Position numbers and translations under genes: made by a program
Part shown: piece after piece, positions 14,551 to 45,261 of the stretch
Layout: the number at the start of each line of letters is the position of its first letter
Position numbering within the stretch: the first letter of the stretch is position 1
NCBI GenBank assembly: GCA_043228905.1
Contig: JBHGNT010000138.1
Location: 1-64,000, forward strand
DNA: 64,000 bases
DNA from: Azolla caroliniana
Lineage: Eukaryota > Plantae > Polypodiophyta
Direction of reading: 5' to 3'
Notes under the pieces: generated by a model
What the model was told of the DNA's origin: nothing
The model's database searches: none
What the model saw: only the letters and a program-made list of their open reading frames with translations

Positions 14551-16573
14551 TGTTAGGAATATGTCCCTCCAGTGGGAGGAGCCGACTGTTCGGAGAGAGC
14601 CGACTATTCGGAGAGAGCCGACAGTCGAAGACAAGGAACAACCGACTGATCGGATGAGTTGGTTGATTAGTGAGACTATTATTAATACTAGATAATAATA
14701 GGAATGACAGTAGTAGTGGCTACATTTGTAAATAGCCCATTTAGGGTATGAGTATAAATACACTTAGGGCAAGTTGCGAGAGTGTGTGAAGTGAGAACAG
14801 TGTGTGTGATCCTCCGTTGTAGTTAACGATAGAGAAGTGTGTGAGAACGTGATGTGAGTCTGTGTGAGCGGCGATATAGTTGTGTTCTGTAACAGCATAC
14901 GCCAAGAGCCCTGCGCGGCTGATACACTCGGTGTAGAGAGTGTTATACTCTAATCTCGTTATTGTATATCCACTGTATAGTGAAGCTCCGCTCTCCATGG
15001 TTTTCTCTCGCTTTAGGGTTTTCACGTAAAATCTGTGCACATTTTCTTCTATGTTTCTGAACTGTGTATTTCAGCGCATTCCTTCTTGTGGATTGTCGAT
15101 TCGTTTCTCAACAAACTGGTATCAGAGCTTGAGGTGCAAGCATGGAAGGAGGTGTGAGTGGCTTCCCAGGAATGATAGTTCTAAACTCTCAGAACTTTGC
15201 AAACTGGAAGATAAAGATGGAGGACCTTCTCCTAGTCAAAGACCTGTATGAGCCGATCGACAGAGTAGAAATACCCATGGGGATATTAGAGTCGGAATGG
15301 AAACTTCTTAACAGAAAGGTTGTGGCCACCATCCGACAGTGCGTCAATGTAAGTGTCCTTCAACATGTGGCGAACGACACAAATGCCCATGGGATGTGGT
15401 AGAAGCTATCAAGTCTATATGAGAGGAAGAACGCCCTCAATAAAACCTCATTGATGAGAAAGATCGTACGGTTGAAATACAGAGACGGTGACAACATTGT
15501 CGAACACATCAACACATTCATGGGGTATGTAAATCAACTTGCTGCAACCAAGTTTCCCCTCGATGATGCCATGCAGGCCATCTTGCTGATGTGCATACTG
15601 CCAGATAGTTGGGAGAACTTGGTGGTTACTGTCAACACCTCCTATCAAGAAGAGAAACTGCCTTTACAAGTTGTGAAGACAAGCATCTTGAACGACGAAG
15701 CAAGAAGGAAGGACAAGGGTGTCCTAGTTCACTCAGAATCAAATCGGACTCAACACATCAGTAGAGGGAGGAATCGGCAAAGAAGTCCACCAAGGAGAGA
15801 AAAGTCTCAAGCCAGGTCGAAGTCTAGAGGTAAGCTCGTGTGCTTCTATTGTGGAAAACCTGGACACTTCCAGAGGGACTGTTGACACATGAGGAAGGAC
15901 AAAGGTGTCATTAATGGTGTTGAACCCAGGAAGATTCCTGATGAAAAGGGAACTTCAGCCATTGCTACGAGCAATGAAGAATTGTTGTTCATTTGCGAAC
16001 AGACAAGTCCAAACCTTGTGAGCGAAGAATGCATTTGGGTGATCGACTCCAGTGCATCCTTCCACATAACTCCATCATGAGAGTATTTCTCGACTTACAT
16101 AGCCGGTGATCATGGTTATGTAAAGATGGGTGATAATGGGGGGTGCAAGGTAGCCGGAATCGGAAGGGTCTGCCCGACAACGTCGACAGGGTGTTGGCTA
16201 ACTCTGAAGGATCTTCGACATGACCCTGACATCAAATTGAATTTGATATCGACTGGAAGACTAGACGATGAGGGCTACAGTGGCAGCTTCCAAAACGGGA
16301 AATGGAAGTTCTGCCGAGGAAATCTTATAGTGGCCCAAGCACAGAAAGAAGGCACATTGTATATGATGCAAACCTGACTGTGCAAGTCGGAAATGAATGT
16401 GATAGCCGACTCGGCAGGACAGATATGACATAAGAGGCTAGGCCACATGAGTGCGAAGGGATTGCATCTGTTGGCCGACCAGAAGCTTCTATCAGAAGTA
16501 AAGGGAGTGCACCTGGAGAAGTGTGTTGATTGCTTAGTCGGAAAGCAGAACAGAGAAACATTCCACACATGGC

Positions 16574-17171
16574 TGTCATGACGACATACATTTTGATTCG
16601 AGCTCAAGACGTCTTGGTCTATATGTTAGACCTTTAACCATTATACTAACATATATGATGTATAGTTATAATAAATGTATTATTAGTTATTACAAGAACC
16701 CTAAACTAATAATACATTTATTATAACTATACATCATATATGTTAGTATAATGGTTAAAGGTCTAACATATAGACCAAGACGTCTTGAGCTCGAATAGTG
16801 TTTTTTCTCTCTCCCTCTACCTTCTACTGTCATCTTATTTTTCTCTCTCCTATTCTCAAGTCATGACAGTTTGAACCGAATGAGTTGTGATGAATGAAAA
16901 GACACCTATTTATAGGTCCTTATGGAGTATTCTAGAATGTTCTAGAATATTTATGATATTTATGATATTTAATATAATCATGGAATATCCTAGAATGTTC
17001 TAGAATACTCTAGAATGTTCTAGAATACTCTAAATGTCTTGTAATAACTAATAATACATTGATTATAACTATACATCATATATGCTAGTATAAGGGTTAA
17101 AGGTCTAACATATAGACCAAGACGTCTTGAGCTCGAATCCTTGTAAGGCCAAAATGTATGTCGTCATGACA
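16574..17171. mobile_element. 598-bp foldback insertion made of chromovirus-type LTR pieces in inverted orientation
   Basis: 21-bp terminal inverted repeat TGTCATGACGACATACATTTT / AAAATGTATGTCGTCATGACA. Internal perfect 93-bp arms at 16596-16688 and 16704-16796. Flanked by ATGGC / ACAGC; removing it restores the host frame FHTRPPRRRD. Confidence 0.85.
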
Positions 17172-18123
17172 ACAGCCACCAAGAAGAAGAGATGTTGCAC
17201 TCGAACTAGTACACATGGATGTGTGTTATGTAGATGCTCTGTCGCATCAAGGTGGATAGTACTTTGTGACTTTCATCGACGACTATAGTCGGAAGTTGTG
17301 GGCTTTCATACTAAAGTCAAAAGATCAAGTATTGTCATTTTTCAAGGAGTTCCAGGCAAGAGCTGAACGAGAGTCGGGTCGGAAGTTGAAGGCTGACTAA
17401 ACTGACAATGGTGGTGAATATAAAGGGCAGTTTGAGCAATACTTCAAAGCCCAAGGTATTCGAATCAAATACACCGTACCAAAGACCCTTGAGTTGAATG
17501 GGCTTGCAGATAGGATGAATCGAACAATCATGGAGAGAGTACATAGCATGCTCTCTCATGCTAAACTGCCGAAATCCATTGGGCTGAGGCGATGTATACA
17601 ACTGTTTATCTGATCAACAGGTCTCTCTCAGTGCCATTTAAGGGTGATGTCCCACAGAGGGTGTGGACAGGAAAGGATGTCTCCTACCAACACTTGAGGG
17701 TGTTTGAATGTTTATCGTATATGCATGTGGCTAAGGATAAGAGGTCGAAGCTCGACAACAAGTCAAAACCATGCATATTCATGGGATACTCGGAAGATGA
17801 GTTCGACTATAGGCTATGGGACCTAGTTCACAAGAAAGTAGTGAGAAGTCGGGATGTAATCTTCTTGGAAGACAAGAAGATAGAGGATTGGAAGCAACAG
17901 AAGTCAGAATTGACTACCCAATCAACCCCTACTATTGTCGACTTGAGGCCAAGCGAATCGACACAGTCGGCTGTTTGGAGACAGCCAATCGGCACAACTG
18001 AATCCAAGCCGGTTGACTTGGAGAGACCGACCGACTATGAGTCTGAGTCGGCTGAGCTGTTAATGTCGATCGAGGAATACAAGTTGGAGTCGTCCAACCT
18101 TGAGACGCCGATCGACATATATG

Positions 18124-18594
18124 TGTGCGGAAAATAGCGCTCGACCACAATTGAGTCTTAAATAACAAATGGAAGAAAACAAACTAACAACTAGATGACA
18201 CAAGATGTTTACGTGGAAACCCTAAATGGGAAAAACCATGGGAGCCCATGGACTCCAACTATCACTATGAGGGGAGGAATACAATGTGAGACTCAGAGGC
18301 AACGACCTCAAGCTCTATGTCTTCGCCAACCGGCGGTTACAACAGAAAAGTCATTCTGTCTCTCTCTATCTCTCACTCTCTTTGTACACACTCTATAGCA
18401 ACTCACATCACTTAAAGTGATTGCCCTAAGTCATATTTATACTTATATGACTTTAGGGCTATTTATATGACTCGATGGGCCCACTATGAAAAATATTTAC
18501 ACATATGTTCTTGGATACGGTTTGCACTAGATCCATCCGGATTCACTCGATCCGGTTTCCGGTTCCTTCATCCGGAGGGACCGAATTCCCAACA
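18124..18594 (-). mobile_element. Solo LTR (Tork-like copia)
   Basis: TG...CA termini and exact 5-bp TSD ATATG (18119-18123 / 18595-18599). The minus strand begins TGTTGGGAATTCGGTCCCTCC and has the GGGTTTCCACGTAAA motif, similar to the LTR at 14551. Confidence 0.88.
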
Positions 18595-19289: not shown

Positions 19290-21840
19290 GCGGGAGGCGG
19301 CGACGCCTAGAGCTCTTTCCTCGTCATCGGCCTTGAATTGGCGACGTTGTTGACGTTCGTCCTCTTGTCGTCGAGACATGCAGTGGCGGCGTTCGTCACC
19401 CTCTCGTCGCTCACGGCTGCTATCTCTCCCGCGCTCCTCGTCCTCTTCCTGCCACCTACGGTGTTCCCTTGATTGTTGGCCATGGCGGCGGCCTTCATCA
19501 TTGCTTCATTCCTCCACGTCAGCATACAAGGCATCACGTAGGCGATTGCATCGATCTTCGGCGGGGATTCGTTCGACGTTCCTGCAGCACCGTTCTGAGG
19601 GTCTTGAGTATCGAGTGTTTTCGATCCATGGGGAGCGACGTTATTAGAGATCTAAGTACTAAAGTAAGCTTAAGATAAGGATAAACAAATGATAGATAGA
19701 AAGGAGAAAGAGAAAGAATGGTGCCGATCCACCCGACCACCCCCGAGCGAGGGGATCGAGACGGACTCGAGCCTCGATCGGCGTCCCATACCACCGCCGT
19801 GGCATCGAGTCGTACTTGGTGCTGGCGCGCTCGCTACAAGATTTGACCCACCACAAGAGCAGAGTCTCGATGTAGTCAAAAAGATTATCAAATGAGGGTA
19901 GCTAGGCCCACGTGGCCCATCAAATGGTCACGTCATTACGAATGCCTCTCGTAAGAACGAGCTCATGGTGGCATCGTATCCATGTAACGAGGGAGGGATG
20001 TTGGATACGTGTGTCATTGGAGCGACCTCACTTGAAGTGAGTCAAGCCCTACGTACTCAACATCATTATGGTTATACGCGTTTCTTTGCGTAACGAAATC
20101 GAGGTCATTAACGGGGTTGTCAACAATAAAAAATTGTTGAAAAAGGGATGGTGACAACGCCATTCTCACAACAATGTGAGGACGGCAACCAACATCCTTT
20201 TCCCGACAAGGACAACTTTCGATATAATCACGTAATAACGAATATACACATATGTTTACTTATCACATATATACGATCAAATACGTATATACGTGACCAC
20301 ATATGCCTATATTAACATATCGTTATATTAAATAGCCACAAATGATGTGATCGAGATACGTAATCGAGGTATATACCTCTACGCACACGAAACATCCACA
20401 AATAAGAGATCATCGTAATACGCAATTGAGGTATTGACCTCTTACGCATACGAGACCAACCGCATATCGTTTACAATAAATCAAGGTATTAAACTCATAC
20501 GCAAACGTAACATATGTTCGTGAACGTAATACGTAATTGAGGTATTAACCTCGTACGCATACGACACTCATCACATATTATTTATATGTCAAACAAGGTA
20601 TTGACCTCGTGCACATATGTAAACGTTTTAGATAATCAATTAAAGACCACTACAACATCATTGACTTAATGAAAAAAATTGAGATATAAACTAAACACAT
20701 GATTAGATGGGAGAAGAGAGAATAGAAAGAAAAATTATGGAAAGAGTTACCGAAGTTCTTTGTTGATCGTTGTCTGGATCAAGGCCGACCGCACATCGAT
20801 CGATCAGCATCAATCAAAAGACAAATGAAAAACAAAGAAACATTAGTACATAAATCTGATACCAAATATTAGAGATCTAAGTACTAAATTAAGCTTAAGA
20901 TAAGGATAAACAAATGATAGATAGAAAGGAGAAAGAGAAAGAAGGGTGCCGATCCACCTGACCACCCCCGAGCGAAGGGATCGAGACGGACTTGAGCCTC
21001 GATCGGCGTCCCATACCACCGCCCTGGCGTCGAGTCGTACCTAGTGCTGGCGCGCTCGCTCCAAGAGTTGAACCACCACAAGAGCAGAGTCTCGATGTAG
21101 TCAAAAAGATTATAAAATGAGGGTAGCTAGGCCTCTTATTTATAGCGATACCCAAGGCCCCCAGGCAAGTTCACACTTGACCTAATGGGTTGTCTCAATC
21201 CCGAGGATTAAAAGTAATCCTCCCCTTCTTTACACTCTCGTTTAACCCTCACACTTATCCACATGTATAGAATACTCTGGTAAATTCTCACCACGGGATA
21301 TTAAATGGTCATGCCCGTAACAGACGTCCTTGTTCACCTTCCTCTCTTTCTCAGCGCTCTTGTAGCTCTCGAATCTGCTTGTCGATGAAATCACCGCACT
21401 CTCGCCTCAGTTCCTCGTCACGTGGCTCATCGCGACCACGGCTACGACGTTCCCTCTCCTCTTCAGAGTCTCTCTTGTTGGCAACGTTGTTGACGTTCGT
21501 CCTCTTGTCGTCGAGACATGTGGTGGCGGCTATCGTCACCCTCTCGTCGCTCACGACTGCTATCTCTCTCGCACTCCTCGCCCTCTTCCTCCCACCTACG
21601 ATGTTCCCTTGATTGCTGGCCATGGCGGCGGCCTTCATCATTGTGTTGTTCCTCCTCGTCAACATACAAGGCATCACGTAGGCGATTGCATCGATCTTCG
21701 GCGGGGATTCGTTCGACGTTCCGACAGCACCGTTCTGAGGGTCTTGAGTATCGAGTGTTTTCGATCCATGGGGAGTGACGTCCTTGTTCACCTTCCTCTC
21801 TTTCGGAGCGTTCTTGTAGCTCTCGGATCTGCTTGTCGGA
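19290..21840 (-). repeat. GC-rich ~454-bp tandem unit (about 2 copies plus a partial), split by the element at 19642-21322
   Basis: 19320-19641 is closely similar to 21478-21781; GACGTCCTTGTTCACCTTCCTCTCTTTC occurs at 21323 and 21777. Confidence 0.8.
19642..21322 (-). mobile_element. Non-autonomous LTR element: 5' LTR 20867-21322, PBS-Met 20855-20864, non-coding interior, U3-less 3' LTR 19642-19908
   Basis: Exact TSD GACGT (19637-19641 / 21323-21327); LTR TGTTACGGGC...CTCTAATA followed by TTTGGTATCAGA. Confidence 0.85.
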
Positions 21841-22360
21841 GGGTTATTGACGTGAGATCATTTCTCGAATATTGTTACCGAGCAAAGTTCAAACACTACC
21901 TTTTTTAGTTAGAATGATTGCTTAAGTTTTGCCAATTTATGTGTAAACACACTATAATGGCTCACATCAATGAATTGGTCATGAGATCCTCCTAATTAGA
22001 GATGACACATGCTAGCACCTCTATTGTTATTCCCGTGATGACATAATCATATATACTTAGCTATAAATATGTTTCATCTTGCTTGTGTTTGCTATATTTT
22101 AAACATCATATTGAAGTCTTTCGTTTCACTTCACTCGTTTGTTGATGGCATCCACATAATACAAAGACTACATGGTGAACTATCCAATGCCTTGAAGCCT
22201 TATATGAGAAATAAGTAGGAAGAACCGAATAAGCTTTTAGCAGTTGGTTTTATTAGATGTGTGTCTCATTTCAAGCTCCATCCCAATTTCAATAGTTCCA
22301 AATTGCTTGTTTACTATATTGCATTCAAACTTAGACTATTATTGCCTTGTGCACAATAAG

Positions 22361-23365
22361 TGTTACGAGCATGAGCATAATTTATCCAGTGGTAACTTGT
22401 ACCGTAGTATTCTACACACAAGGATAAAGTGTGAGGATTAATTTAGAGTGTAAAGAAGGGAGGATGTTGAGAATCAAACTTAACTTAGTCTAGTGTGTGA
22501 ACACACCTTTTAGAATATGTAATGTGAACACACTCAAAGTTCATCACCACTCTGTAACATAACGTTTACCGGCCGATTTCCGGTTTTAGGGAATTTGGCC
22601 ACCATCATCCATCAAGACAAAGTGGCCAAAGTGCTCTTAGCACAAATGAAAAATGAGGGAGCTCAAGGTGCTTATATAGCCAGGGCCTTAACTTTCCTAT
22701 CTATGTGGGATAGTTCTAATTTCCCTATCTTCTCAAACTTTATTTTCACATAACTTGATATGTATTTCTCCATTTTGTATATAGTAAAATACGTTTTGAA
22801 GCTCTTGAGTATATCCATCTTTCTATAGTAAGCTACTAATATAATCTATAATAATTATTTCATTATTTTTTACATAGTGTGTGAAGATTCACACGACAAC
22901 GTGTTTTTAGTATACAACCCCGATGAGCGTCAAGGCGAACCATTGTTTGTCATAAAGCCATTTATGGGAGAAAAAAATGAAAGAATCAAACTTGAAGCAA
23001 TCAACACGTGGTTGGGCCGATGGGAGTCTCATTTTGAGCTCTATCCCAAGCCAGATAGTATGAAGATTGCATATGTTGGTTGAGAACTAGGGGGTAAGGT
23101 TGCAGCCCGGTCGCGTGGGCTCCACACTTTGGGGAAATTGCCAAATACCTAGACAAACGTTGTCAAGGTTTTCAAGGGACAATTTGGGGAAATCGGGTCT
23201 AGAAGGGGACAATTGGTTAATAACTTGTTTTATCAATGGCATCCCTAATTCAGACTATCATTGGATAATGCACGATAAGAATCCCAAATCCTTCGAAGAG
23301 GCCGTTGAAATAGTCCTTTGCTATCAACGCACTTCGAAGAAGAACCATAACAAACCCAACGAAGC
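22361..23365 (+). mobile_element. LTR fragments and degenerate Ty3/gypsy gag remnant
   Basis: TGTTACGAGCATGA... LTR start of the same family as 43624 and 45303, a second TGTTGAGAATC LTR-like start at ~22465, and gag-like LEAINTWLGRWESHFELY...KIAYVG and PKSFEEAVEIVL. Confidence 0.55.
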
Positions 23366-23912
23366 ACCTATATTAAATGTACTTAGGAGTGGAGAATCTA
23401 GAATATCCCACCTAAGTACAAGGTCCTGTCATGATATGGCAAGACTCGAATCCATGACTTTATGCTACATGGGTCGAGCTCTTACCATTAGACTATGAAT
23501 TGTAATTTGTAGGATATTATTTTCATTTATGCTTTATCATAGAAAATTGATGTATATTCCAGATCTCTCTGGAACATTCTAGAAGCTTCAGGATTATTCC
23601 TAAAAACACTATAAAAGGAGGCACAAGGCATTGTTTTGAACCAAATTGGTTCAACGCCAATCTTAAGCCTCGTAGCCGATTTGTACTTATCTTTTCATAT
23701 AATATAAGAGCTGCTGTCATCATCCTTCTCTCTCTCTCTTTCTCGCTATCTCTCTCTCTCTTCTCTTCTCACTTCCTCTCTCGGGAATCTTACGCAATCC
23801 CATCCTCTTAGTACTAATAGTACTGCTCTTCTTTAGTACTAATTCCATCTCTGCTTTAGTACTACTCCTGACAGTTTGAACCAATTTTTCCTTCTACCCT
23901 TTTCCCTATACT

Positions 23913-25056
23913 ATGGCTACTGTTAGCGCCCAAGAATATCAATCCGTTTTCTCCGAGCTACAGTGCTTAAAAGAAAAATTTGTTGCCTTGGAACAAGAAA
24001 ACCAACGGTTGATAGGGGATCTGCAACAAATCGCTCTAGAAAAGCAACAAACGCAACAACAACATGGGGAGTTAGCGTTACAGGTGCAACAACTCGAAGC
24101 GGCATTGCAACAACAAGGATCAAGTCCCCAAGGATTTCATAAAGAGCCGAAGATTGGACTTCCTGTGAAATTTGATGGAACGCGATCGCAATTCAAGGGA
24201 TTCCTTAATCAGGTACAATTAGTCCTCCAAATGCATCCTTCCCGATACCCCACTGATGCATCCCGAGTCGGCTTAATAGGCACATTGCTTAGCGGATCAG
24301 CCTTAGCATGGTTCGCTCCGCTCCTAGAAAAACAATCGCCCTTGCTTAATAACTTTGAAGATTTTATTAGTGAGTTCAAAGCCTGCTTTGGAGACATCGA
24401 CAACTTCAGGACGACGATCAACAAGATCCGGCGATTGTGTCAAGGCGATCGTCCAGCCTCTACCTACGTGGCGGATTTCCGCCTACTCGCTTCAGACATA
24501 CCCTGGGATGATCAAGCACTAATGGAGCAGTTTCGCTATGGCCTACGAAACGATGTCAAAGATCTACTTCTAACTTTTCCCGAAGAACCAAAGTCTCTTA
24601 CGGAGGCAATCAGTCGAGCGGTCCGATGTGACAACCGCCTTTCCGAACGGCGTTCAGAACGTCAATTACAGATACCACGCGCTAGGCCGGAGACCACTTA
24701 CGCCGCAGTCACAGCTAAACCGTTTGCACGAGACATACCTCAAGCAAATACTTCAACACCGATGGAGATCGATACCATCGTCGACGCGGCCCGTTATCGG
24801 AAGAAGAAAAGCAATGACGACGTGCAAATCGGTTATGTCTTTATTGCGGTGGACCAGGGCATATCACAATCAATTGTCCCCATAGGCCAAGAAGACAGGT
24901 AAATCAAATTGTAGCCTGTACTAAACCCGAGTCAATTCTTCCCTTAGGAGTGTCTGATAGTATTAATAGTACTAATAGAGTGTTTGATAGTATTCATAGT
25001 ACTAATAGCCCAAGTATCTCAAATAAATTTGAAATCCTTAGTCAATTAGATGAAGA
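23913..25056 (+). pseudogene. gag: Tcn1-like Gag (coiled coil, capsid, CCHC knuckle), frameshifted near 24780
   Basis: PKIGLPVKFDGTRSQFKGFLNQ, LLSGSALAWF and PMEIDT; the knuckle RLCLYCGGPGHITINCP lies in the shifted frame. Confidence 0.88.
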
Positions 25057-25065
25057 GTTAAACGA

Positions 25066-28000
25066 TTGAGTCCAGCCAAAATAGGAGCCATTTGGTTGGA
25101 CAACAACCCTAGATCTGTACAGCCCATTAGTGGTTCCATTCCTTCCAAGCAAGTTAACAATGTGTTCCTAGCCCAAGTCATTGTTAGTACTAAAAGTACT
25201 CCCCCAGTACCCGTCCTAGCACTTTTAGATTCCAGAGCTAATTCTTGTTTCATGGATCGAAATTTTGCCCAAGCTTCTCAGACATCCTTAAGAAAACTTC
25301 CTTGTCCCGCAGCTGTAGTAGTCATTGATGGTCGTCCCATTGCTTCCGGGAATATTGTAGAAGAATCAGAACCCATTCAAGTTGTCCTAGGTAGTTTTGT
25401 GTGTGCAATATCATTTAATATAATTAGTAGTCCAGAGCATCCCATTGTCCTAGGATTACCTTGGTTTGAATTACATAATCCAGCCATAGATTGGAGAACA
25501 AGAGAAGTTCGATATCGACCACCCCAAGAATCAACTCATCGAGTTTCGACCATTTCACTCCATCAACTACGGGAAGAAGGACCCAAGGAGGCAATGTTCC
25601 TATTTGCAATATCAGTACATCCTTCCAGCACTATTAAGAAGGACTCCTCAGTACAACTTCCAGCAAAATATCATCCTTATGCCGATGTATTTGACAAGGT
25701 AAAAGCCGGTACCCTTCCTCATCACCGTCCTTATGACTGTCCCATCGATTTACAACTAGGAACCGAGCCACCACGGGGACCAATTTACAACTTGTCACCC
25801 ACCGAGTTAGAAGTCCTTCAAGCCTACATAGAGGAGAACTTGGCAAGCGGGTTCATCCGTCATTCGAAATCTCCGGCTGGTGCACCCATCTTCTTTGTCA
25901 AGAAGAAAGATGGCTCACTTCGTCTTGTCGTTGATTACCGCGGATTGAATAAAGTCACTATCCGGAATAGGTATGCACTTCCTCTTATATCAAGTCTTTT
26001 AGAGCGAGTTAATGGTGCCAAGTTTTTTACTAAAATCGACCTACGAGGAGCGTATAACCTCGTGCGGATCCGACCGGGAGATGAATGGAAGACTGCCTTC
26101 CGCACGCGGTATGGGCATTTCGAGTATACTGTTATGCCGTTCGGCCTAACCAATGCACCCGCAGTCTTCCAACACATGGCAAATGATATATTCAGAGACC
26201 TCTTGGATATCTGTTTGATCATTTATCTGGATGATCTATTGATTTATTCGAAGACCCAGGAAGAGCACGATTCTCATGTACTATTAGTACTAAAGCGACT
26301 CCGCGAGAATGGTCTTTATGCCAAGCTAGAAAAATGTAGCTTTGACTGCAAGCAAGTGGAATTTCTAGGCTACGTCATCTCCTCAAAGGGCATCGCCATG
26401 GATCCAGCTAAAATCCAAACTGTACTAGAGTGGCAAATTCCACGGTCGGTACGAGATGTACAATGTTTTCTAGGTTTTGCTAACTTCTACCGTAAGTTTA
26501 TACAGGATTACTCGAAGATTATTTTACCTCTCACACAACTTACAAAGAAGGGCCAAGCATTTCTTTGGTCCATAGAAGCAGATATGGCTTTTCGGCATCT
26601 TAAGAAAGCCTTTACATCAACACCGATTCTAGCTCATGTGGATACAAGAAAACCATTCATCATGGAGGCCGATGCATCAGATTTCGCCCTCGGTAGCATC
26701 CTTTCTCAACCAGGAGATAAAGAAGAGTTGCATCCGGTGGCTTTCCATTCGCGCAAATTCGATGTCGAAGAAATCAACTACGAAATACATGACAAGGAGT
26801 TATTAGCCATCGTGGATTCATTTGTACAATGGCGGCATTTTTTAGAGGGCTCTCCACATCAGGTCATTGTCTTTAGCGATCATAAAAATCTTGCTTATTT
26901 TCAGAACGCTCGCGTACTAAATCGACGGCAAGCTCGGTGGGCGCAATTCCTCACGCGTTTCGACTTCAAAATCACATATCGACTGGGGAAGCAGCAAGGA
27001 AAAGCAGATGCACTATCACGACGTTCATATCTTACACCTCGTCCTGGTGATGCAACATTTGATAATCAAAAGCAAGTAATCTTGGGACCAACACGATTGC
27101 ACACGACGCGGATTTTTCACACCCCAATGGATTCACGGATTACCGATGACATACGTGCAACCTTGAAGACAGATAGTTTTGCTCAAGACATCCTGGCGCA
27201 CATTGATACTTCTCGGGCATCATGTTCTCGGTCTCAACAACCAGGTATTGACTACCGACAATTCAAATATCATGATGGTTTGTTATTCTTTAAAAAGCGC
27301 GTATATGTCCCCGATTGCTCTTGTCGCCTTCAAATTGTCCAGCATTGTCACGACACCCATACGGCGGGACATTTCGGTAGTACTAAGACGTTGGAGCTAG
27401 TGCAACGATCTTTTTGGTGGCCCCACATGCGCCGTTTTGTCGACGACTACGTTCGGACCTGTGATGCTTGCTGCCGCGCAAAGATGCCACGACACCATCC
27501 ATATGGCTTGTTGGAACCCTTACCGATTCCAAGTAAGCCGTGGTAGTCTATTTGTCTTGATTTTATCATAGATCTGCCGGTCTCGAAGGGGTTCGATGCT
27601 ATCCTAACCGTCGTCGATCGATATACGAAGATGGCACATTTTTTGCCGTGTACTAAAGCCATCACTAGCGAGGAAACTGCCGCCCTTGTTATGCGAGAGG
27701 TATTTCGGCATCATGGCCTCCCAGACAGTATCATCAGTGACCGAGGACCGCAATTTGTCTCCAATTTTTGGTAGCATCTCTTCAAGATGCTCAAGGTCTC
27801 CTGCAATCTCTCCTCCGGCTACCATCCTCAGACCAACGGGCAGGCGGAACGAACAAACCAAACGCTAGAGCAATATCTCCGGTGTTTCCTGAGTTATCAA
27901 CAGGACGATTGGGCCGAGATTCTCCACTTTGCGGAGTTTGCGTATAATAATGCTATTCACTCCTCGACTCGGGTCTCCCCATTTTTCGCTTATACCGGTT

Positions 28001-28671
28001 TCCATCCTCGTTGGTCGGTGATCGACACCCCGGAGCTACCTACCAACCCTTGTGCCGAGGATCATTTGGAGAGGCTACGCAAGATCCAGATGGATCTCTC
28101 TACTCACCTTCGTCATGCTCAACACACACAAAAGACTTATGCGGATTGTCATCGGATTCCCTCCTCTTTTGCCATCGGAGATCGAGTATGGCTCTTACGT
28201 CGTCACATCAAGACTACTCGACTGTGCGACAAGTTGGATTATCGACGACTCGGTCCCTTCCGTATTACGGGTAAGATTAATGATGTCACATTCCGCCTTG
28301 ATCTCCCTCCGCAGCTTCAGATACATCCGGTTTTCCATTGTTCTCTTCTTGAACCTTATAAAGCAAACACCATTCTCGATCGTGTGACACCACCCCCGCC
28401 CCCGCTAGAGTTGGACGCCGGCCCGGAGTATGAAGTTGCTGCCATCCTCGATTCCAAACTTGTTCGCAACAAACTTTATTACTTGGTCAATTGGCTCGGT
28501 TATAGTCCGAGCGAACGTACTTGGGAACCCGTCGAGCATGTTGCCAATGCACATGATCTTCTTGCTGATTTCCACCGAAAGTATCCGGACAAACCCGGTC
28601 CGCAATTAGCGCCGACTCGTTCCACTCGTCGTCATGATAGTGTCATGATATGGCAAGACTCGAACCCATGA
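25066..28671 (+). pseudogene. pol: Tcn1-like Pol: protease, RT, RNase H, integrase, chromodomain; in-frame stops at ~27544 and ~27772
   Basis: ALLDSRANSCF, YLDDLLIYS, EADASDFALG, HDTHTAGHFG, GYHPQTNGQAER, RLGPFRI, and chromodomain EYEVAAILDS...YLVNWLGYSPSERTWEP. Confidence 0.95.
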
Positions 28672-30089
28672 CCTTATGCTACATGGGTCGAGCTCTTACC
28701 ATTAGACTATGAATTGTAATTTGTAGGATATTATTTTCATTTATGCTTTATCATAGAAAATTGATGTATATTCCAGATCTCTCTGGAACATTCTAGAAGC
28801 TTCAGGATTATTCCTAAAAACACTATGAAAGGAGGCACAAGGCATTGTTTTGAACCAAATTGGTTCAACGCCAGTCTTAAGCCTCTTAGCCGATTTGTAC
28901 TTATCTTTTCACATAATATAAGAGCTGCTGTCATCATCCTTCTCTCTCTCTCTTTCTCGCTATCTCTCTCTCTCTTCTCTTCTCACTTCCTCTCTTGGGA
29001 ATCTTACGCAGTCCTGTCCTCTTAGTACTAATAGTACTGCTCTTCTTTAGTACTAATTCCATCTCTGCTTTAGTACTACTCCTGACAGGTCCTATTTAAG
29101 GCGTTATAGTCAACACTCCTAACTAGATTCTATCTAGGTAACTACAAAGTTACATGGTTGACTAAATAACTAAATTAAGTTGAACTTGATCTCTCAACAT
29201 GCCCCCTCAAGCTCAAGTGTGAGGTGTCCGACATCCGCTTTGGCTTTCGTCGTCTTCGTGTGCTTTCGTCCGGTCTTCGACTTTCTTTGTTGTGGCAATC
29301 TTGCTTACTCCCCCTCAAGCCGGTGATGAAAGCTTGTAGTGTGTGGGTGAAGGTCGACTACTTCCAACCCCATCGTGTGTTACGAGCCACTTTGGTGGAG
29401 CTCTTGGGATCTTGTTCGGCCGCTACCTTCATTGCGAAGGCATAGTGATGGGCCATTTACTAGTTGAAGCTAAGCCGGGCGACATGGTTCTTAGCTCTAG
29501 ATGGGCGTCGAATTTTTTCGCTCGCCGATGTGAGTGCCTTCTTTGCTCTAGGTGTTTGCATGATGGGTACACTGAACTCACTATCTAGTGAGGGAGCCGA
29601 CACATCCGAATCACTGTCGTCGGGGTGATCAACTTCGTATTCAGGCATCTTAACTCTGCCTTTGTTCAAGTTCTTACTTGGCCATGACATGCTTGGGTCG
29701 TGTGGCGGCTCTTGTGGCCCACTAGGCCTTGCTGTAATCGGACTTTCTTCGAACATGTGTTCGAAGAGATCTCCATCTTCTACCTCTTGTTCAATGGATT
29801 CCGGGTTGAGCGGAGTCAGAGTCGAAGTTGTCTCTAGTGCGTACCAGGATGCAGACTCGTCGAAGACTACGTCTTGACTTACCCGAACCGCTTGGGTAGA
29901 AGGGTTGTATCACTTGTATGCCTTCTTCTCGTACGAGTATCCTATGAGGATACATTTCTCCAACTTCGTGTTGGGCTTCTGTCGTTGTTCGTACGGGATG
30001 CGTACATTCTCAATGCTTCTGAACACCTTGAGGTGCGACAAGATCGGCTTTCTTCCGACAAGGAGCTCGTATGGAGTTATTCTTGGCTT

Positions 30090-39000: not shown

Positions 39001-40818
39001 GACTTGTACAAAGTGTTCATTGAACACATATATGTAGTGTTTTTTGTCTTTCTTGAATATACATATTCTCTCTCCTGGTCTCTCCCGAGTATACTGCGTA
39101 AGCTCAAGCTCTCCATTAAACTTGAGTGTTCTTCTTTTCTGTTCTGTCTTCATACTTGCTTCCGCACGCTACTTTCTACAAACGCAAAGCTTCGCCGAGA
39201 TTCGGGAAAGGCATGCGACTTGACATGGTTTCGACAGATTGTCAGAAGCCTGATATATTTGACGGTCACTAGGCCGGACCTCAACTACCCGGTCGGACTC
39301 AGTTTATGTTGCAGCCTACGGCCAAACAGTTTTAGTGCACGCAAAGGATATTGCGATATGTCAGTGGCACAAAAGACATGGTGTTGTTGTATTGGGCAGG
39401 CGTAGCTGAACAGATGGTTGGCTGCATGGATGCTGATTGGGCCAGAAACGCCAGTGATCGTAGATCCACATCCGGATATGCCTTCTCATTAGGAAGTGTG
39501 GCGATCGCGTGGAGTAGTAAGAAGCAGCCGACAGTAGCACCGTCGAGCACAGAGGCCAAATATCGAGGGCCGACTATCGCTACGTGCGAAGTCATTTGGC
39601 TGAAACGACTGTTACGAGATTTGCATGTGGATGTGTCCGATCCGACGAAGATCTATTGCAACAACCTTAGCAGTATCCACCTTGCGAAAAACCATGTATT
39701 CCACGCCCGGACCAAGCACATTGAGGTGCATTACCATTTTCTCTGCGAGCGGGTCCTTTCAGGTGAAGGCGTATGTTCCAACGGATCAACAAGTTGCCGA
39801 CATTTTCACCAAGCCTCTTAGTCTCAACAAGTTGCGGCATTTCTTGGGTGAGCTTGGGTTGCGTCACCTCGACACGTCGAACTTGAGGGGGAGACAGGAG
39901 CAAGAGAGTGAAAGGAGGGGAGGTGATCATCGCGGCGGAAGTGACCGTGATGTGGAGTCAGATGAAGAATTCAATTTCGGGTCGGCTGAAGAAGCTGATG
40001 AAGAGAGGAAGGGCCGAGGACGACCGAATTAGGGGGAGGTAAGGCCAAGACCAAGACGTGGTCTGACATTGTCAAAGGCCTAAAAACTTAAGACGAATTG
40101 GAGACAACCAATTTGGATGTAAGTGGAATTGAATCGGAAGAGACTGATTCAATAGAAATATTCGATTCGGATATTGCGAGTCAAATCAGGGCCAAGTGGA
40201 GGAAAGAGCAGCGGAAGAGGTGCCAACACCGCAACAACAAGGGAGCTCAGAAGGGCCAAATGAACAGACTAGCCGACCAGAAGGGTTGAGGAGTGCGGAA
40301 TCAAATAGGTCATGGAACACGAGCAAGGCGTGAAGCCAGGAAAGCCGGAGTGAAGATCCAGAGGAGCATGTGGAACTTCAAGTTGAGCTTGAGGGGGGGG
40401 TGTTGAGTGACAAGCTCAACATTGGGTGCATAACACAATGCGTAACCTAGTGTGTAAACTAGGTGCGTAAAACAATACGCATAACGTGGTCGTATCAGTG
40501 CGCAAACCGAAAGGCCATTAGTATGGTATTCCTTGTAAGGAATAATTTTGGGAGTTAGTGTAGTAGGCTCATTTATGAGCAGTCAAGTACTGTCAGTACT
40601 TGTGTCAGCCCGATAGTTAGGGTTTGTATAAAAGGTGCTCATTGAGCACGAAATATGTACAGAGTGTCATTATTTTGAAATAGAACTAAGTTGCCTCTCA
40701 ATCTCTGTCTCTCCATCTCCATCTCCATCTCTGTGTTCTCTGTGTTTTACCAAACTATCGGTCTCCGAACTGTGTACTCTGTGTTGTGCATACGTTTCCG
40801 CACATGTATTCTTTTACA
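30090..40818 (+). mobile_element. Ty1/copia pseudo-element lacking its 5' LTR; 3' LTR 40401-40818; split by the element at 33623-39180
   Basis: gag MDRGMGSSLLTEKLDRSNYASWSY, WYVDSGASNHMT, integrase and RT HQMDVKNAFL/LLYVDDL. It resumes at 39181 with RNase H, then PPT GAGGGGGGG and TGTTGAG..TTTTACA. Confidence 0.9.
33623..39180 (+). mobile_element. Full-length Ty1/copia element, LTRs 33623-33980 and 38823-39180, PBS-Met 33981
   Basis: 358-bp TG..CA LTRs (about 9 differences by eye), TSD AATGC/AACGC and TGGTATCAGAG. The gag-PR-IN-RT-RH order is complete, with several stops and frameshifts. Confidence 0.96.
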
Positions 40819-43053
40819 AAGATCCACGCGTAGCACAAGTAGTCGTCGATGAAGGTGACGTAGAATCGGCATCCGCCGATCATTGGCATTTGAGCTGGTC
40901 TCCATACATTCGAGTGTATGATGTCGAGGAGGCCTTTGCTCGCGTGGCTCACCTTCGGGAATGGGAGTCGATGTTGTTTACCGAGTTGACGCGCTTCACA
41001 TACTCGGTTGACTTGAATGTTGGAATTCCGATGACGACGACCTTTGATTTGCGTAGCTCGGAGCCGTTGGAGGTTTATGTGGCCAATTCTCTTGTGCCAC
41101 AACTCGATGCTTGTCTCCGTTTTGAGACCTTTAGCGTACATTGCCGATTTCATCTTGTTCGAACGAGGATGAACATTCGACCATCTCTCGGCCCCTTAGC
41201 TATGAGTCGGCCATCTTTCTCGATGAAACAACCTTCGTTGTTGAAGCGGACTTGCATGCCTTGCTCCACGATTTGGCCGACCGAGACCAAATTCTTCATT
41301 ATCGTGGGCACGTGCAAGACATTCTTGATGCAAGTTTGCTCGCCTTCTTTCCCGAATGGGACATTGTCAATGTGCCGAATAGGATGTGTGGTGTCGTCAC
41401 CCATCTCTATGATGTCGGGTCGATTGGGTGTGTGCAAATCATTGAACCACTCTTCGTGGGATGTCATGTGATGTGAGGCACCGGAATCGACGAACCACAC
41501 ATATTCTGAGTTGGAGGTGCTTGTGGATTGGAGGCCATCATAGAGTTCGCTCTATGTCTCATTACGAATAGACCACCGTAGTCGTTGTATTCGGAGTTGT
41601 TGGCGTAGTTTGTGAGTTGTCGATTTGTCGAAGCCGACTCACTTCTCTTTTTCCAACACTCCTCTTTGCAGTGGCCGATTTTGCCGCAATAATTGCATGG
41701 TATGGGCCTCATTTGGCGACCTTGTTCGGCATGGAAGCTCCCCCTTCTTCTGAAGGTTCTTTGATGGCTTCCGTGAAGGTTTGAGTTCCCTTCATGCGAT
41801 GGGCCGAATTGGCCTCTTCTACTACCTCGACTTCGTCCTCAACTACCATCTAAATTCGAGAAGAACATTTGTCCTTCCGATGTCTTGGTTTTGGCTTGAA
41901 CGTGGTTCTCTTCAACCATTAGCATTAATTGAAGGTCGAAGAACGAAGGAGGATTTTCCCTCGCCAAGATTGCCGTCCTCAACGAGTCGAATCGTTGTGC
42001 AACGCCGCCCAAGCATACTTGAACCATCTCGTCTTCGTCGACGTTTATTTTGATGGAGCCAAGCGAGTTGCAAATGCTGTTGATCTTGGCAATGTAGTCC
42101 GAATGTTGTTAAACTCTTGTCGTAGTTGAAGCTTTTGGGCGGTCGTGTTGGCGGCGAACATTTTCTTTAAGTTCTCCCACGTCTCTTTCGGCGTCTTGGC
42201 GTCTCGAATGTGGCTAAGCATGTGGTCGTGGACACATGTTCCCAAGCAATACATGACTCGACTAACCGCTTGCTTCCATGTTGAGTAGTCGACGTTCTTT
42301 GCGTTCGATCGATTTTCTTGAGCGCCGTTGATGTAACTCCAATACCCTTGGCTGACAAGGTATTGGGTCATCTTGTAGTCCCAAGATGAATAATTGCTCT
42401 GGTCTAGCTTTTCACTAGGGGGCGAGCTACCCATTTGTGTGTTCATTTTGATGTAGTGTCTTTCGTTTTGCTTTTCTTCCTTCGATCATGTACTCGTGCT
42501 ACGTAGCGGCACTATGGTAGCGGATAGCTGGAATTTGTCATCGGTGTTTCGAACACACAATTATGAAGAGGCGGATGGGCTTAGTGGATATGCTAAACCA
42601 CATGCTCTAATACCATGTTAATAATTAGGTAATTAAACATGGGTTAATTAGTACCTAATTATGTGATTAGTTGATAAGCGGAAGATTACGTGATATGTGT
42701 GTGTATGTGTGTGAGAGGAAGAGAGAGAGAAGTACACTTATGAACAACACAAGATGGGGGATGATTAACTCTATATTAAATTAGCATTATCATCATCAAA
42801 TACAAAAATACCCACAATGAGGTATATATACATCTCATGTGCAAAGGTGCACATCTGTGAGTAGAATATAGGTACTAAGGTATAAGTCCTATATTAAATG
42901 TACTTAGGAGTGTAAGATCTAGAATATCCCCCTAAGTACAAGGTCCTATTTAAGGCGTTATAGTCAACACTCCTAACTAGATTCTATCTAGGTAACTACA
43001 AAGTTATATGGTTGACTAAATAACTAAACTAAGTTGAGGTTGATCTCTCAACA

Positions 43054-44058
43054 ATTTTCAACCACAAGCCCCGATTGATGTTAATATACATCATGATGAG
43101 TTGCGAAGTACACAAAACTTTCTTCGGGATATGCAAGATGTGTTGCATATTGCACGAGATAATATAAAAAAAACTCAAGATAGAGCTCATTTTTATGCCA
43201 ATCATAATAGGCAACCTCGTGTATTCAACTCTGGACAGAAAGTACTTTTACGTGTACCTCACAATTCTAAGACATTGTCTACAGGTAAGTGCGTTAAGTT
43301 AACCCCATGGTTTTGTGGACCTTTTACAGTCCTCAAAAGCATTGGTTCATCAGCCAATTGTCTTGTTGTTCCTAATGGCGTTGAAATCCATCCAATTTTT
43401 TATGTAGATCGTCTAAAAGAACTTCTTGGTTATGGCGACAATACAGTGACAATTGAAACTCTGGTTAAAACGAAAAATTTGCGTTCTAAAATAATCCGAG
43501 AATTTAAAACAAAATGGATGGATAAGTCTATCAAAGATACCACATAGGAACCCGAAAATACACTTACAACTAACTTCCCTAACTTTCCATTACAAGAGTG
43601 CAATGTTTTAAAGAGGGGAAGTATGTTACGGGCATGACCATATCCCGTGGTGAGTTTTACCATAGTATTCTATACACATGGATAAAGTGTGAGTGTAAAG
43701 AAGGAAAGGATTGCTTTTAGTCCTTGGGATTGGGACAACCCATTAGGCCAAGTGTGAACTTGCTTGGGGACCTTAGGTTTGGCTATAAATATGAGGCCTA
43801 GTTACCCTCATTTGACACATTATCGACTATGTCGAGACTCCGTCATTGTGGTGGGTCAACTCATGTAGTGAGTGCGCCAGCACCAGGTACGACTCGACGC
43901 CACAACGGTGGTATGGGATGCCGATCGAGGCCCGTCCGTCTCGATTCCTTCGCTCGGGGGTGGTCGGGTGGATCGGAACCCTTCTTTCTCTCTCTCCTTT
44001 CTTATTTTATATCTATTATATCCTTATCTCATGTTTACATTAGGATCTAGCTCTACCA
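43054..44058 (+). mobile_element. Ty3/gypsy integrase/chromodomain remnant with PPT and 3' LTR (43624-~44058)
   Basis: ARDNIKKTQDR..YANHNR..KLTPWFCGPF..IHPIFYVDRLK, then PPT AAGAGGGGAAG followed by TGTTACGGGCATGACC. Confidence 0.8.
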
Positions 44059-44919
44059 AGTCCAGTGGATGTGAACCATTGATTGTAAGACCAACGAATA
44101 ATTCCTTAAAATGGAAAATTGTTATAGAGGCTCACAAATTACTAAATAATTGCCGCTAGAAGGCACACATTTGAACGAGAAGATGGGAGGGGATATATAT
44201 ACAATCAATGAACGATTTTGTGTAATATAAGGTTTGTAATATAATTTCTCCCTCTTTTTATCTTGAACATTTGCATATAATGTTGTAGTGTAATTGCTAT
44301 CAAGTGACCTAACTTATAAAGGCAACACTCAGCTAGTATCATTTGTGAATCTACCATTCATAATGTGGTTTTCATTTTTATGATAGGAATCTAGTTAACG
44401 ATAGGATACATGCATAGTGAGGCCAAAGGTAAGAGGCCAAAGCCAAAGCATTGGATGCAAACTATCACTAAAAGAGCCCTTCTTCCCCACCTAGATGCTG
44501 TGGACAATGGATCAAAGGTAAGATGTATAGAGAATACTAAACAACCCCCTAATCTAATAAATGCATGCTCTTGAGTCATGATATCACACAACCATGTGTG
44601 CCTAAGCTGCTCGAGCGGAACTACATGGAATCTATACTAGGGAAGATGTGATCTCATACAAGAAGAACCTTAAAACCCCTTTGAAGGTTTCCTTGAGGAA
44701 TTTCCCCTTTCTTTGTAAATAATGCTCGTTGATCTCCTGGGCTCGCTAGGCTCATGGGCTCCTCAAGCTCGTAGAGTTACTAGGCTTTTGGGCTCCTTGG
44801 GCCCATTGGCCTTGTGGCCTTGTTTGTGTCATGGGCAAGTTAGGGTCGTACGCTCCTATCATTTTGGGATCCTCTGAATCTTGTGCTCCTTGGATTCCTC
44901 TTCTAGCCACCACTACTTT

Positions 44920-45219
44920 TATTAAGCGAGCACGCTCAACCGGATCCGAATCGGCGGAATAAGCCAAAGCTGGATCGGTGTACGGATGATATCCGGAACT
45001 AGGAGCCGGATAAGAGACCTAGATCGGATTGAAACCAGCAGGCCATTAGAGGCCTACGTAGGCATTTTTTTGGGATTCAGTGATAGTTGCTCATGTGAGC
45101 ATTGATGTACCTGTCAGTACTTCTGCCAGCCCTTTATGAACTTGTATAAAAGTGCTCTCTGATCACATTCTATGTACACATAATATTGAGAGTATTATTT
45201 TGAATTGAGTTTATGTTCT

Positions 45220-45261
<42 letters not shown>

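What the first reader, a model, noticed from the sequence alone, without database searches (positions are those of the whole stretch)
16574..17171. Integrated foldback element that looks like a fossil of a self-primed reverse-transcription product
Seen in sequence, reading the minus strand from 17171: TGTCATGAC (LTR start), a U3-like region with TTCTAGAA repeats, TATAAATA (~16907-16914), then ~30 nt later GGTTCAAAC. This is joined directly to TGTCATGACTTGAGAATAGG..., the reverse complement of a pyrimidine-rich U5 end. On +, the junction reads U5...TCATGACA|GTTTGAACC, the same LTR/PBS junction as the Tcn1-like element (CTGACA|GTTTGAACC at 23873). So the transcript-start 'primer' sequence is contiguous with the antisense U5, which is the geometry of a self-primed minus strong-stop product. 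Both outer ends are the same U3 terminus in inverted orientation. The flanks ATGGC and ACAGC are both single CpG-decay products of ACGGC, and removal restores the host reading frame. Inference: an aberrant cDNA with two U3 ends was integrase-inserted, giving a MITE-like element born from an LTR.
Basis: partly seen in the sequence, partly recalled or inferred. Interest (0 to 1): 0.85.

Follow-up and report, generated by a model that had tools for sequence, protein, structure and literature searches.

The report
Self-priming retrotransposon leaves mirror-image inserts
A 598-base insert in a plant genome is made of a jumping gene's terminal repeat joined to its own mirror image at the element's built-in primer site, and the same joint recurs in other copies, so it is likely a repeated copying error that the element's integrase pasted in by two identical ends.

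Summary
The structure is real: 598 bp inside a dead Copia pol gene, both ends the U3 terminus of one chromovirus LTR family, with a decayed 5-bp duplication. Relatives confirm the parent order U3-TATA-primer-R-U5-GT-PBS; primer and PBS are an 11-nt complement, compensated in a neighbouring family. The + strand reads U3...U5-GT-PBS-antisense U3. A metagenome contig holds the form with R-U5 intact, and short-read contigs from 3 of 4 runs hold the joint in other copies. Integrase insertion is inferred; capture of cDNA by recombination, or a chromosomal template switch, is not excluded. This locus's own junctions were not seen in reads, and nothing shows MITE-like amplification. The scan noted a similar dimer in another genome (unchecked). 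I found no description in 10 literature searches. It is a recurrent by-product of a known mechanism, not a new system.

The parts
16569..16573 (+). Left copy of the 5-bp target duplication (ATGGC)
   Evidence: other Copia copies skip 598+5 bases here (table 5)
16574..16595 (+). U3 terminus, U3 positions 1-22, followed by an 11-nt deletion (U3 23-33)
   Evidence: alignment with the right arm and 17 family copies
16596..16697 (+). Left arm, U3 positions 34-135
   Evidence: 100 of 103 complementary to 17037-17139; carries the family letter at all 3 positions where it differs from the right arm
16698..16703 (+). 6-nt filler ACCCTA; with its neighbours it reads as one plant-telomere-like repeat (repeat unit recalled)
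   Evidence: no source for the filler in the window or in loci L001-L031; sequence shown
16704..16796 (-). Inner inverted copy of U3 34-126; forms a perfect 93-bp hairpin with the left arm
   Evidence: 93/93 to the left arm, 90/93 to the right arm
16797..16868 (+). Last 72 nt of U5, ending in the LTR terminus CA
   Evidence: 16806-16881 is 75/76 identical to the U5-GT-PBS of L019; 1-nt overlap only at the joint with the inner arm
16869..16870 (+). GT spacer between LTR end and PBS
   Evidence: same spacer in L010, L019 and the neighbour element
16871..16881 (.). 11-nt crossover word: PBS on +, predicted self-primer (R start) on -
   Evidence: contigs leave the window sequence exactly behind 16881 (leader) or before 16871 (R) in all four runs; pairing probability 0.6-1.0 in the parent's 5' RNA
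16882..17171 (-). Right arm: complete U3 (290 nt) with TTCTAGAA repeats and TATA box at 16914-16907, 33 nt before the primer's first base
   Evidence: loose ends behind 17171 read as the complement of a polypurine tract in X1 and X3; L001, L008, L009, L016 have the PPT before this terminus
17172..17176 (+). Right copy of the target duplication (ACAGC)
15403..18137 (+). Host: decayed Copia gag-pol (several stops), interrupted in the integrase region; limits are those of two ORF remnants, not of the element
   Evidence: Retrotran_gag_2, zf-CCHC
23428..29087 (+). Neighbour, not the parent: full-length chromovirus of a sister family, LTRs 446 nt with 10 differences, TSD GGTCC, its own primer (23644) and PBS (23876)

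Best explanation
The insert is an LTR joined to the mirror image of its own U3 at the 11-nt primer/PBS complement, likely formed during reverse transcription when a plus-strand strong-stop DNA (U3-R-U5-GT-PBS) paired its PBS tail with its own R start and was extended back along U3, and likely inserted by the family's integrase through two U3 ends. Shown: the parent order, the 11-nt complement, the joint inside it, two U3 termini, the 5-bp duplication, and recurrence of the joint in other copies. Inferred: (1) the plus strong-stop DNA is released as a single strand with a PBS tail, as reported for Ty3 and Tf1; (2) it snaps back and runs off at the U3 end, which fixes the second terminus exactly; (3) a second strand is made, perhaps from the retained polypurine primer by strand displacement; (4) integrase accepts two U3 ends; (5) the long inverted repeat later broke and was repaired, replacing U3 136-290, R and the first part of U5 of the left LTR with a 93-nt inverted U3 copy and a 6-nt filler. 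The product lacks a second R and a PPT, so it is predicted to be a dead end; it recurs by repeated origin, not by amplification.
For: Parent order seen directly in L019 and L010 and as loose ends in 4 of 4 runs. Complement is exactly 11 nt in L019 and L010; the neighbour family differs at 2 of the 11 positions and its PBS changes to match. L018 reads U3-primer-R-U5-AT-PBS-antisense U3 with the loop intact, the one-jump form. Of 25 matches to a 20-mer at the R start in 24 metagenome loci, 23 continue as normal R and 2 (L011, L018) as antisense U5. Of 32 listed contigs (longest first, of 640 laid), 1 bridges the joint with 31 or more letters on both sides (X3 record 17, depth 91.7) and 6 more run 12-30 nt into U5 (X3, X7, X13); two of these are 329- and 350-nt contigs at about the depth of their run's other listed contigs, and all 7 differ from the window by 5-13 letters. 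All window arms share 11 letters that are rare among 17 family copies, 5 of them absent there; one of these (17130) is replaced in over 99% of the depth in 4 of 4 runs, which points to one template. The inverted copy stops exactly at the LTR terminus, and solo copies L003 and L004 show that the family makes 5-bp duplications. About 50% of Tf1 cDNA keeps a single-stranded PBS at its 3' end (PMC11042837, passages); the first Ty3 plus strong-stop DNA ends in a primer copy, is displaced and accumulates (PMC5371799, section 2.2).
Against: Only the window copy shows both ends and a duplication; L018's second end is off its contig and L011's left side is unrelated sequence with no duplication. The metagenome contigs are partly chimeric: 3 of 5 solo-like copies lack a matching duplication, and L017 shares L018's flank but differs in R. 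No run holds more than 0.32 of the stretch's words and no listed contig joins this element to its flanks. None of X1's 8 listed contigs crosses the joint. All 3 arm differences are derived on the right arm (1 in 27 if three copies aged alike, 1 in 8 if two), which an older resident LTR plus a younger incoming cDNA would also give. The duplication matches at only 3 of 5 letters. No experiment shows this integrase using two U3 ends, and second-strand synthesis is a guess.
Confidence: 0.6

Rival explanations
1. Recombinational capture: a free cDNA or plus strong-stop DNA annealed by its PBS tail to the primer word of a resident LTR in the opposite orientation; its U3 start then joined through the 8-9 nt terminal inverted repeat to the resident's U5 end, keeping the resident's old duplication. 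No integrase step with two U3 ends is needed.
For: Tf1 inserts without integrase at PBS-like sites, often with truncation of the far end (PMC11042837, passages). L011 is one-sided as this predicts. The right arm alone carries the 3 derived changes. LTR start and end are near-perfect inverted repeats.
Against: The window arms share letters that are rare in the family, so donor and resident would have to be near-identical siblings; two precise short-homology joins are needed.
Confidence: 0.15
2. Chromosomal template switch after a normal insertion: a broken or stalled strand ending at the PBS folded back on the R start, copied U3, and rejoined at the far LTR end through the terminal inverted repeat, deleting the internal region.
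For: Explains a single template for all arms. The left half shows that nuclear repair did act here (filler, 1-nt overlap, deletion). Short inverted repeats priming foldback in chromosomes is recalled knowledge.
Against: A chromosomal foldback has no reason to stop at the LTR terminus; here it stops exactly there and the host frame is collinear.
Confidence: 0.12
3. One reading: a nascent plus strand paused after U3 and the primer word, primed at the PBS of an RNA like the normal self-primer, copied U5 backwards, and reached a second U3 end by further jumps; the inner hairpin arose in the same reverse transcription.
For: The - strand does read U3, primer, AC, antisense U5. L011's antisense R stops within a few bases of the primer's end, near where a cleaved RNA would end.
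Against: The window copy would need four jumps, three of them with 0-1 nt of overlap; its U5 copy stops 72 nt in, not at the RNA end; L018 needs one jump under the plus-strand model.
Confidence: 0.08
4. Assembly or library artefact, wholly or for the perfect inner hairpin.
For: No reads or contigs for this locus were found; the inner arms are 93/93 identical; foldback chimeras at short inverted repeats are a recalled library artefact.
Against: Outer arms differ by 3 substitutions and an 11-nt gap; each duplication copy has its own CpG-type change; the same joint stands in long, diverged contigs of three separate runs and in two metagenome contigs.
Confidence: 0.05

Closest known systems
Tf1/sushi self-priming chromoviruses and the plant Tcn1 clade (PMC6317226, passages; bioRxiv 10.1101/2022.12.06.519325, passages)
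   Same: Parent has a chromodomain, no tRNA-type PBS, a 5' RNA end predicted to pair with the PBS, 5-bp duplications and TGTCA...ACA ends.
   Different: The insert is not an element of this kind: no coding region, no PPT, LTR parts inverted, two U3 ends. The passages read describe no such product.
Dead-end plus strong-stop DNA of Ty3/Ty1 (PMC5371799, section 2.2)
   Same: A displaced U3-R-U5-primer-copy single strand is the proposed starting molecule.
   Different: With a tRNA primer the tail has no partner in its own LTR; in a self-priming element it always has one.
Integrase-independent Tf1 insertion at PBS homology (PMC11042837, passages)
   Same: The single-stranded PBS tail of the cDNA finds a complementary or identical word and makes a joint there.
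   Different: Reported products are direct tandems or truncated inserts; the word 'inverted' does not occur in that text. Here the joint is inverted and both ends are intact LTR termini.
Ginger1/Ginger2 and GingerRoot DNA transposons (PMC2836005, passages and Discussion; PMC6839031, search listing only)
   Same: TG-starting terminal inverted repeats of similar length; the paper suggests that such repeats may have come from two LTRs in opposite orientation.
   Different: No transposase, no sign of excision or amplification; Ginger1 makes 4-bp duplications; that paper invokes two separate insertions, not one foldback.
MITEs, foldback elements and TRIMs (recalled)
   Same: Short, non-coding, flanked by a duplication; inverted ends as in MITEs; LTR-derived as in TRIMs.
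   Different: No family of near-identical copies was seen; TRIMs have direct LTRs, a PBS and a PPT.

Membership tests
Parent family: chromovirus, Tcn1 / Tf1-sushi type | Integrase ending in a chromodomain, with aromatic-cage residues | tested here: met
   Chromo PF00385 and SH3_Tf2-1 above cut-off in 3 of 3 loci that abut this LTR (L008, L009, L016); EYEV...WLGY present (cage positions recalled)
Parent family: chromovirus, Tcn1 / Tf1-sushi type | LTR word complementary to at least 10 nt starting 0-5 nt behind the 5' LTR (self-primer criterion of PMC6317226) | tested here: met
   11 nt, 2 nt behind the LTR, in L010 and L019; compensated in the neighbour
Parent family: chromovirus, Tcn1 / Tf1-sushi type | Transcript starts at the primer word and is cleaved to prime | not testable with these tools
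   Only the 33-nt distance from TATA supports the start; no raw RNA reads were offered
Parent family: chromovirus, Tcn1 / Tf1-sushi type | RT/RH/INT phylogeny within the Tcn1 clade | not tested
   No tree was built; the neighbour's RT search gave mostly unnamed hits, named ones fungal, amphibian and algal
Intact LTR retrotransposon, solo LTR or TRIM | U3 terminus at one end, U5 terminus at the other, LTRs in direct orientation | tested here: not met
   Both ends are U3; the U5 terminus is internal at 16868
Integrase-made insertion | TG...CA termini with the family's 5-bp duplication | tested here: met
   603 bases skipped in paralogues; duplication 3 of 5 identical, both changes CpG-type; L003 and L004 show 5 bp. 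This does not tell which molecule the integrase inserted
MITE | Terminal inverted repeats and a target duplication | tested here: met
   135-column inverted match and 5-bp duplication
MITE | Many near-identical copies of the same unit, moved by a transposase | tested here: inconclusive
   One copy in the window; none of 24 loci repeats this unit; other joints differ by 5-13 letters; the whole genome was not available
Ginger DNA transposons | Integrase-like transposase between the inverted repeats | tested here: not met
   All 598 bases map to LTR, spacer, PBS or a 6-nt filler

The most novel reading that the evidence does not exclude
Every self-priming LTR retrotransposon carries a built-in snap-back error: its plus strong-stop DNA folds on itself and is integrated by two U3 ends, seeding genomes with inverted-repeat inserts. 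These keep intact promoters facing each other, so they would make antisense and hairpin RNA against the family's own U3 (here a predicted perfect 93-bp stem) and act as self-made silencer loci; they would also show in one step how an LTR becomes a terminal inverted repeat, the step left open for Ginger transposons.
Probability: 0.25. Interest if true: 0.75.

Novelty: new variant of a known kind. Interest (0 to 1): 0.52.

Why it matters
Self-priming in plant Tcn1 elements is only predicted from sequence; a joint that falls exactly in the primer/PBS word, again and again, is fossil evidence that this pairing happens on DNA intermediates. It makes a sharp, cheap prediction: such inserts should occur in self-priming families (Tf1/sushi, Tcn1, the Copia TAR lineage) and not in tRNA-primed ones, and snap-back cDNA should be visible in Tf1 particles. 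It would show that a Ty3/gypsy integrase accepts two U3 ends in vivo. Annotation tools would call these MITEs or miss them. If they are transcribed they could silence their own family. Against this: the product looks like a dead end, and only one copy here has both ends resolved.

Tried and rejected
Look-up of earlier findings by sequence gave one unrelated note and by place nearby none. No RNA holder was listed for the stretch. Scans of viral contigs (7 loci; 0) and genome contigs (3 loci) gave only 18-22 nt matches with no further likeness: chance, dropped. The neighbour at 23428-29087 is not the parent: only short patches match the insert. GGTTCAAAC as the primer was rejected. A simple inversion between primer and PBS was rejected: it would leave a U5 end or the leader on the far side, not a second U3 terminus. 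A source for the 6-nt filler was not found. The RT search did not name the host or the family; the host is taken as a plant, likely non-seed, from the Copia and Tcn1-like content and PMC6317226. The two primary Tf1 papers on primer retention are not held; I cite them only through PMC11042837. The '11-nt primer of Tf1', the plant telomere unit, Mu killer and library foldback artefacts are recalled. Ten literature searches listed no title or abstract describing such an insert; 'inverted LTRs' and 'U3-U3' had 0 occurrences in the 20 and 15 papers listed. Most subscription papers are not searched and no supplements were read.

Full report
1. Observation. The insert 16574-17171 (598 bp) lies in the integrase region of a decayed Copia gag-pol. 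Both ends begin TGTCATGAC; the outer arms match over 135 columns with 3 substitutions and an 11-nt gap. Flanks are ATGGC and ACAGC. Contigs of other Copia copies skip 603 bases at this place in runs X1, X3 and X7 but not X2 (table 5), and a paralogue in the window keeps the same codon spacing with Arg at this codon. This fits a 5-bp duplication with one CpG-type change in each copy.

2. The parent. A 20-mer at the predicted transcript start gave 24 metagenome loci with 25 matches. They define an LTR of about 360-550 nt. L008, L009 and L016 have a chromodomain integrase and a polypurine tract before the same terminus that ends our insert; loose ends behind 17171 read as that tract in X1 and X3. 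L019 and L010 show R, U5, GT, PBS, a pyrimidine leader and a gag start; L019 is 75/76 identical to window 16806-16881. So the order U3-TATA-primer-R-U5-GT-PBS is confirmed. The complement between R start and PBS is exactly 11 nt and is predicted to pair in the 5' RNA with probability 0.6-1.0; the neighbour family differs at 2 of the 11 positions and its PBS matches its own primer. This meets the self-primer criterion of PMC6317226 (passages), which predicts self-priming for Tcn1 alone among plant chromoviruses. PMC2864245 (passages) found no evidence of either priming mode for one Selaginella Tcn1. I built no tree, so 'Tcn1-like' rests on these features.

3. Anatomy. On +: U3 1-22; deletion of 23-33; U3 34-135; filler ACCCTA; inverted U3 126-34; last 72 nt of U5; GT; the 11-mer; inverted U3 290-1. 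The crossover lies inside the 11-mer: in all four runs ordinary contigs leave the window sequence behind 16881 (into leader) or before 16871 (into R). The three U3 copies share 11 letters that at most a quarter of 17 family copies carry, 5 of them carried by none (one of the 17 rows is all gaps and one partly so in this region, and the loci may come from other species). At 17130 over 99% of the depth has another letter in 4 of 4 runs. One template is therefore likely. The 3 differences between arms are all derived on the right arm; the inner hairpin is perfect.

4. Recurrence. Of the 25 matches, 23 continue as normal R and 2 as antisense U5. L018 has the whole form: U3, primer, R, U5, AT, PBS, antisense U3; its arms are not identical and its far end is off the contig. 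L011 has R from about base 17, U5, GT, PBS, antisense U3 and a Copia flank, but unrelated sequence on the left. These contigs can be chimeric: 3 of 5 solo-like copies lack a duplication, L005 and L006 share one flank only, and L017 shares L018's flank but not its R. An 11-nt overlap is too short for an assembler to bridge without reads (my knowledge of the method). In short-read contigs, 32 of 640 laid records were listed, longest first: X3 record 17 bridges the joint by the tool's 31-letter rule; X3 record 18, X7 records 25-27 and X13 records 9-10 run 28, 30, 23, 12, 27 and 17 nt into U5; X1 shows none. They differ from the window by 5-13 letters, so they are other copies. X7 record 25 and X13 record 9 are 329 and 350 nt long at about the depth of their runs' other listed contigs, which suits single diverged loci better than a library artefact summed over a high-copy family. 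X3, X7 and X13 carry three different organism labels. Whether these copies have two U3 ends is not known. This locus's own junctions were not seen: no run holds more than 0.32 of its words.

5. Mechanism. The + strand is what a plus strong-stop DNA (U3-R-U5-GT-PBS) gives if its 3' PBS tail pairs with its own R start and is extended to the end of U3. In a self-priming element this partner is always present. Ty3 displaces and accumulates a first plus strong-stop DNA that ends in a primer copy (PMC5371799, section 2.2), and about half of Tf1 cDNA keeps a single-stranded PBS tail (PMC11042837, passages). Run-off at the molecule's end explains the exact second terminus. Second-strand synthesis and integration by two U3 ends are inferred. 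The left LTR then lost U3 136-290, R and the first part of U5 and gained the inner inverted copy; a 1-nt overlap, a filler and a deletion at the hairpin's base look like later nuclear repair of an unstable inverted repeat, but the order of events is not shown. Capture of a cDNA by its PBS tail at a resident LTR gives the same end state and fits L011 and the one-sided arm changes; a chromosomal foldback does too but should not stop at the terminus.

6. Function. None is shown. Without a second R or a PPT the insert is predicted to be unable to retrotranspose. The right-arm promoter is intact, and an RNA from it would fold into a perfect 93-bp stem of U3 sequence (-160.4 kcal/mol), a possible source of small RNAs against the family; this is untested.

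7. Comparison and novelty. It is not a solo LTR, TRIM, intact element or Ginger transposon (membership tests); it has a MITE's shape without evidence of a MITE's amplification. PMC2836005 (Discussion) calls the path from LTR element to DNA transposon unclear and suggests two opposite LTRs as the source of the inverted repeats; a snap-back gives that in one event, but without an integrase gene inside. Ten searches found no description (see Tried and rejected). The scan holds an unchecked note of a similar two-U3 dimer in another genome (e1-9818888), seen after I had written down the plus-strand reading; it is a lead, not support.

8. Verdict. New variant of a known kind; interest 0.52.

Noticed in passing
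window 28620-28641: The neighbour chromovirus lacks the polypurine tract before its 3' LTR: where L001, L008, L009 and L016 have a run of A and G, it has a short stretch resembling its own LTR start. It still has a perfect GGTCC duplication and LTRs 10/446 apart.
   Followed up: partly
window 23634-23655 and 28848-28869: In the neighbour's LTR a PBS-like word lies directly before the primer word, forming a short palindrome across the predicted transcript start.
   Followed up: no
window 16696-16705: The hairpin loop contains one plant-telomere-like repeat in register with the end of the inner arm, as if telomerase had added filler at a break; the same 9-mer occurs at 4 other places in the window, so chance is not excluded.
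   Followed up: partly
window 16925-17030: The U3 itself is a 106-nt imperfect palindrome built of TTCTAGAA units, whose number varies among family copies; such units resemble heat-shock elements (recalled).
   Followed up: no
window 30100-56000: Dense nest of at least four related Copia copies, 60-97% alike, with one inverted piece near 40800-42300.
   Followed up: no
window 19338-22465, 43617-45735: A further LTR-like repeat family in both orientations, with a direct pair 19642-19908 and 20867-21133 only 1.2 kb apart.
   Followed up: no
L011 1-500: One-sided foldback joint whose R stops a few bases short of the primer and whose two flanks belong to different sequences.
   Followed up: partly
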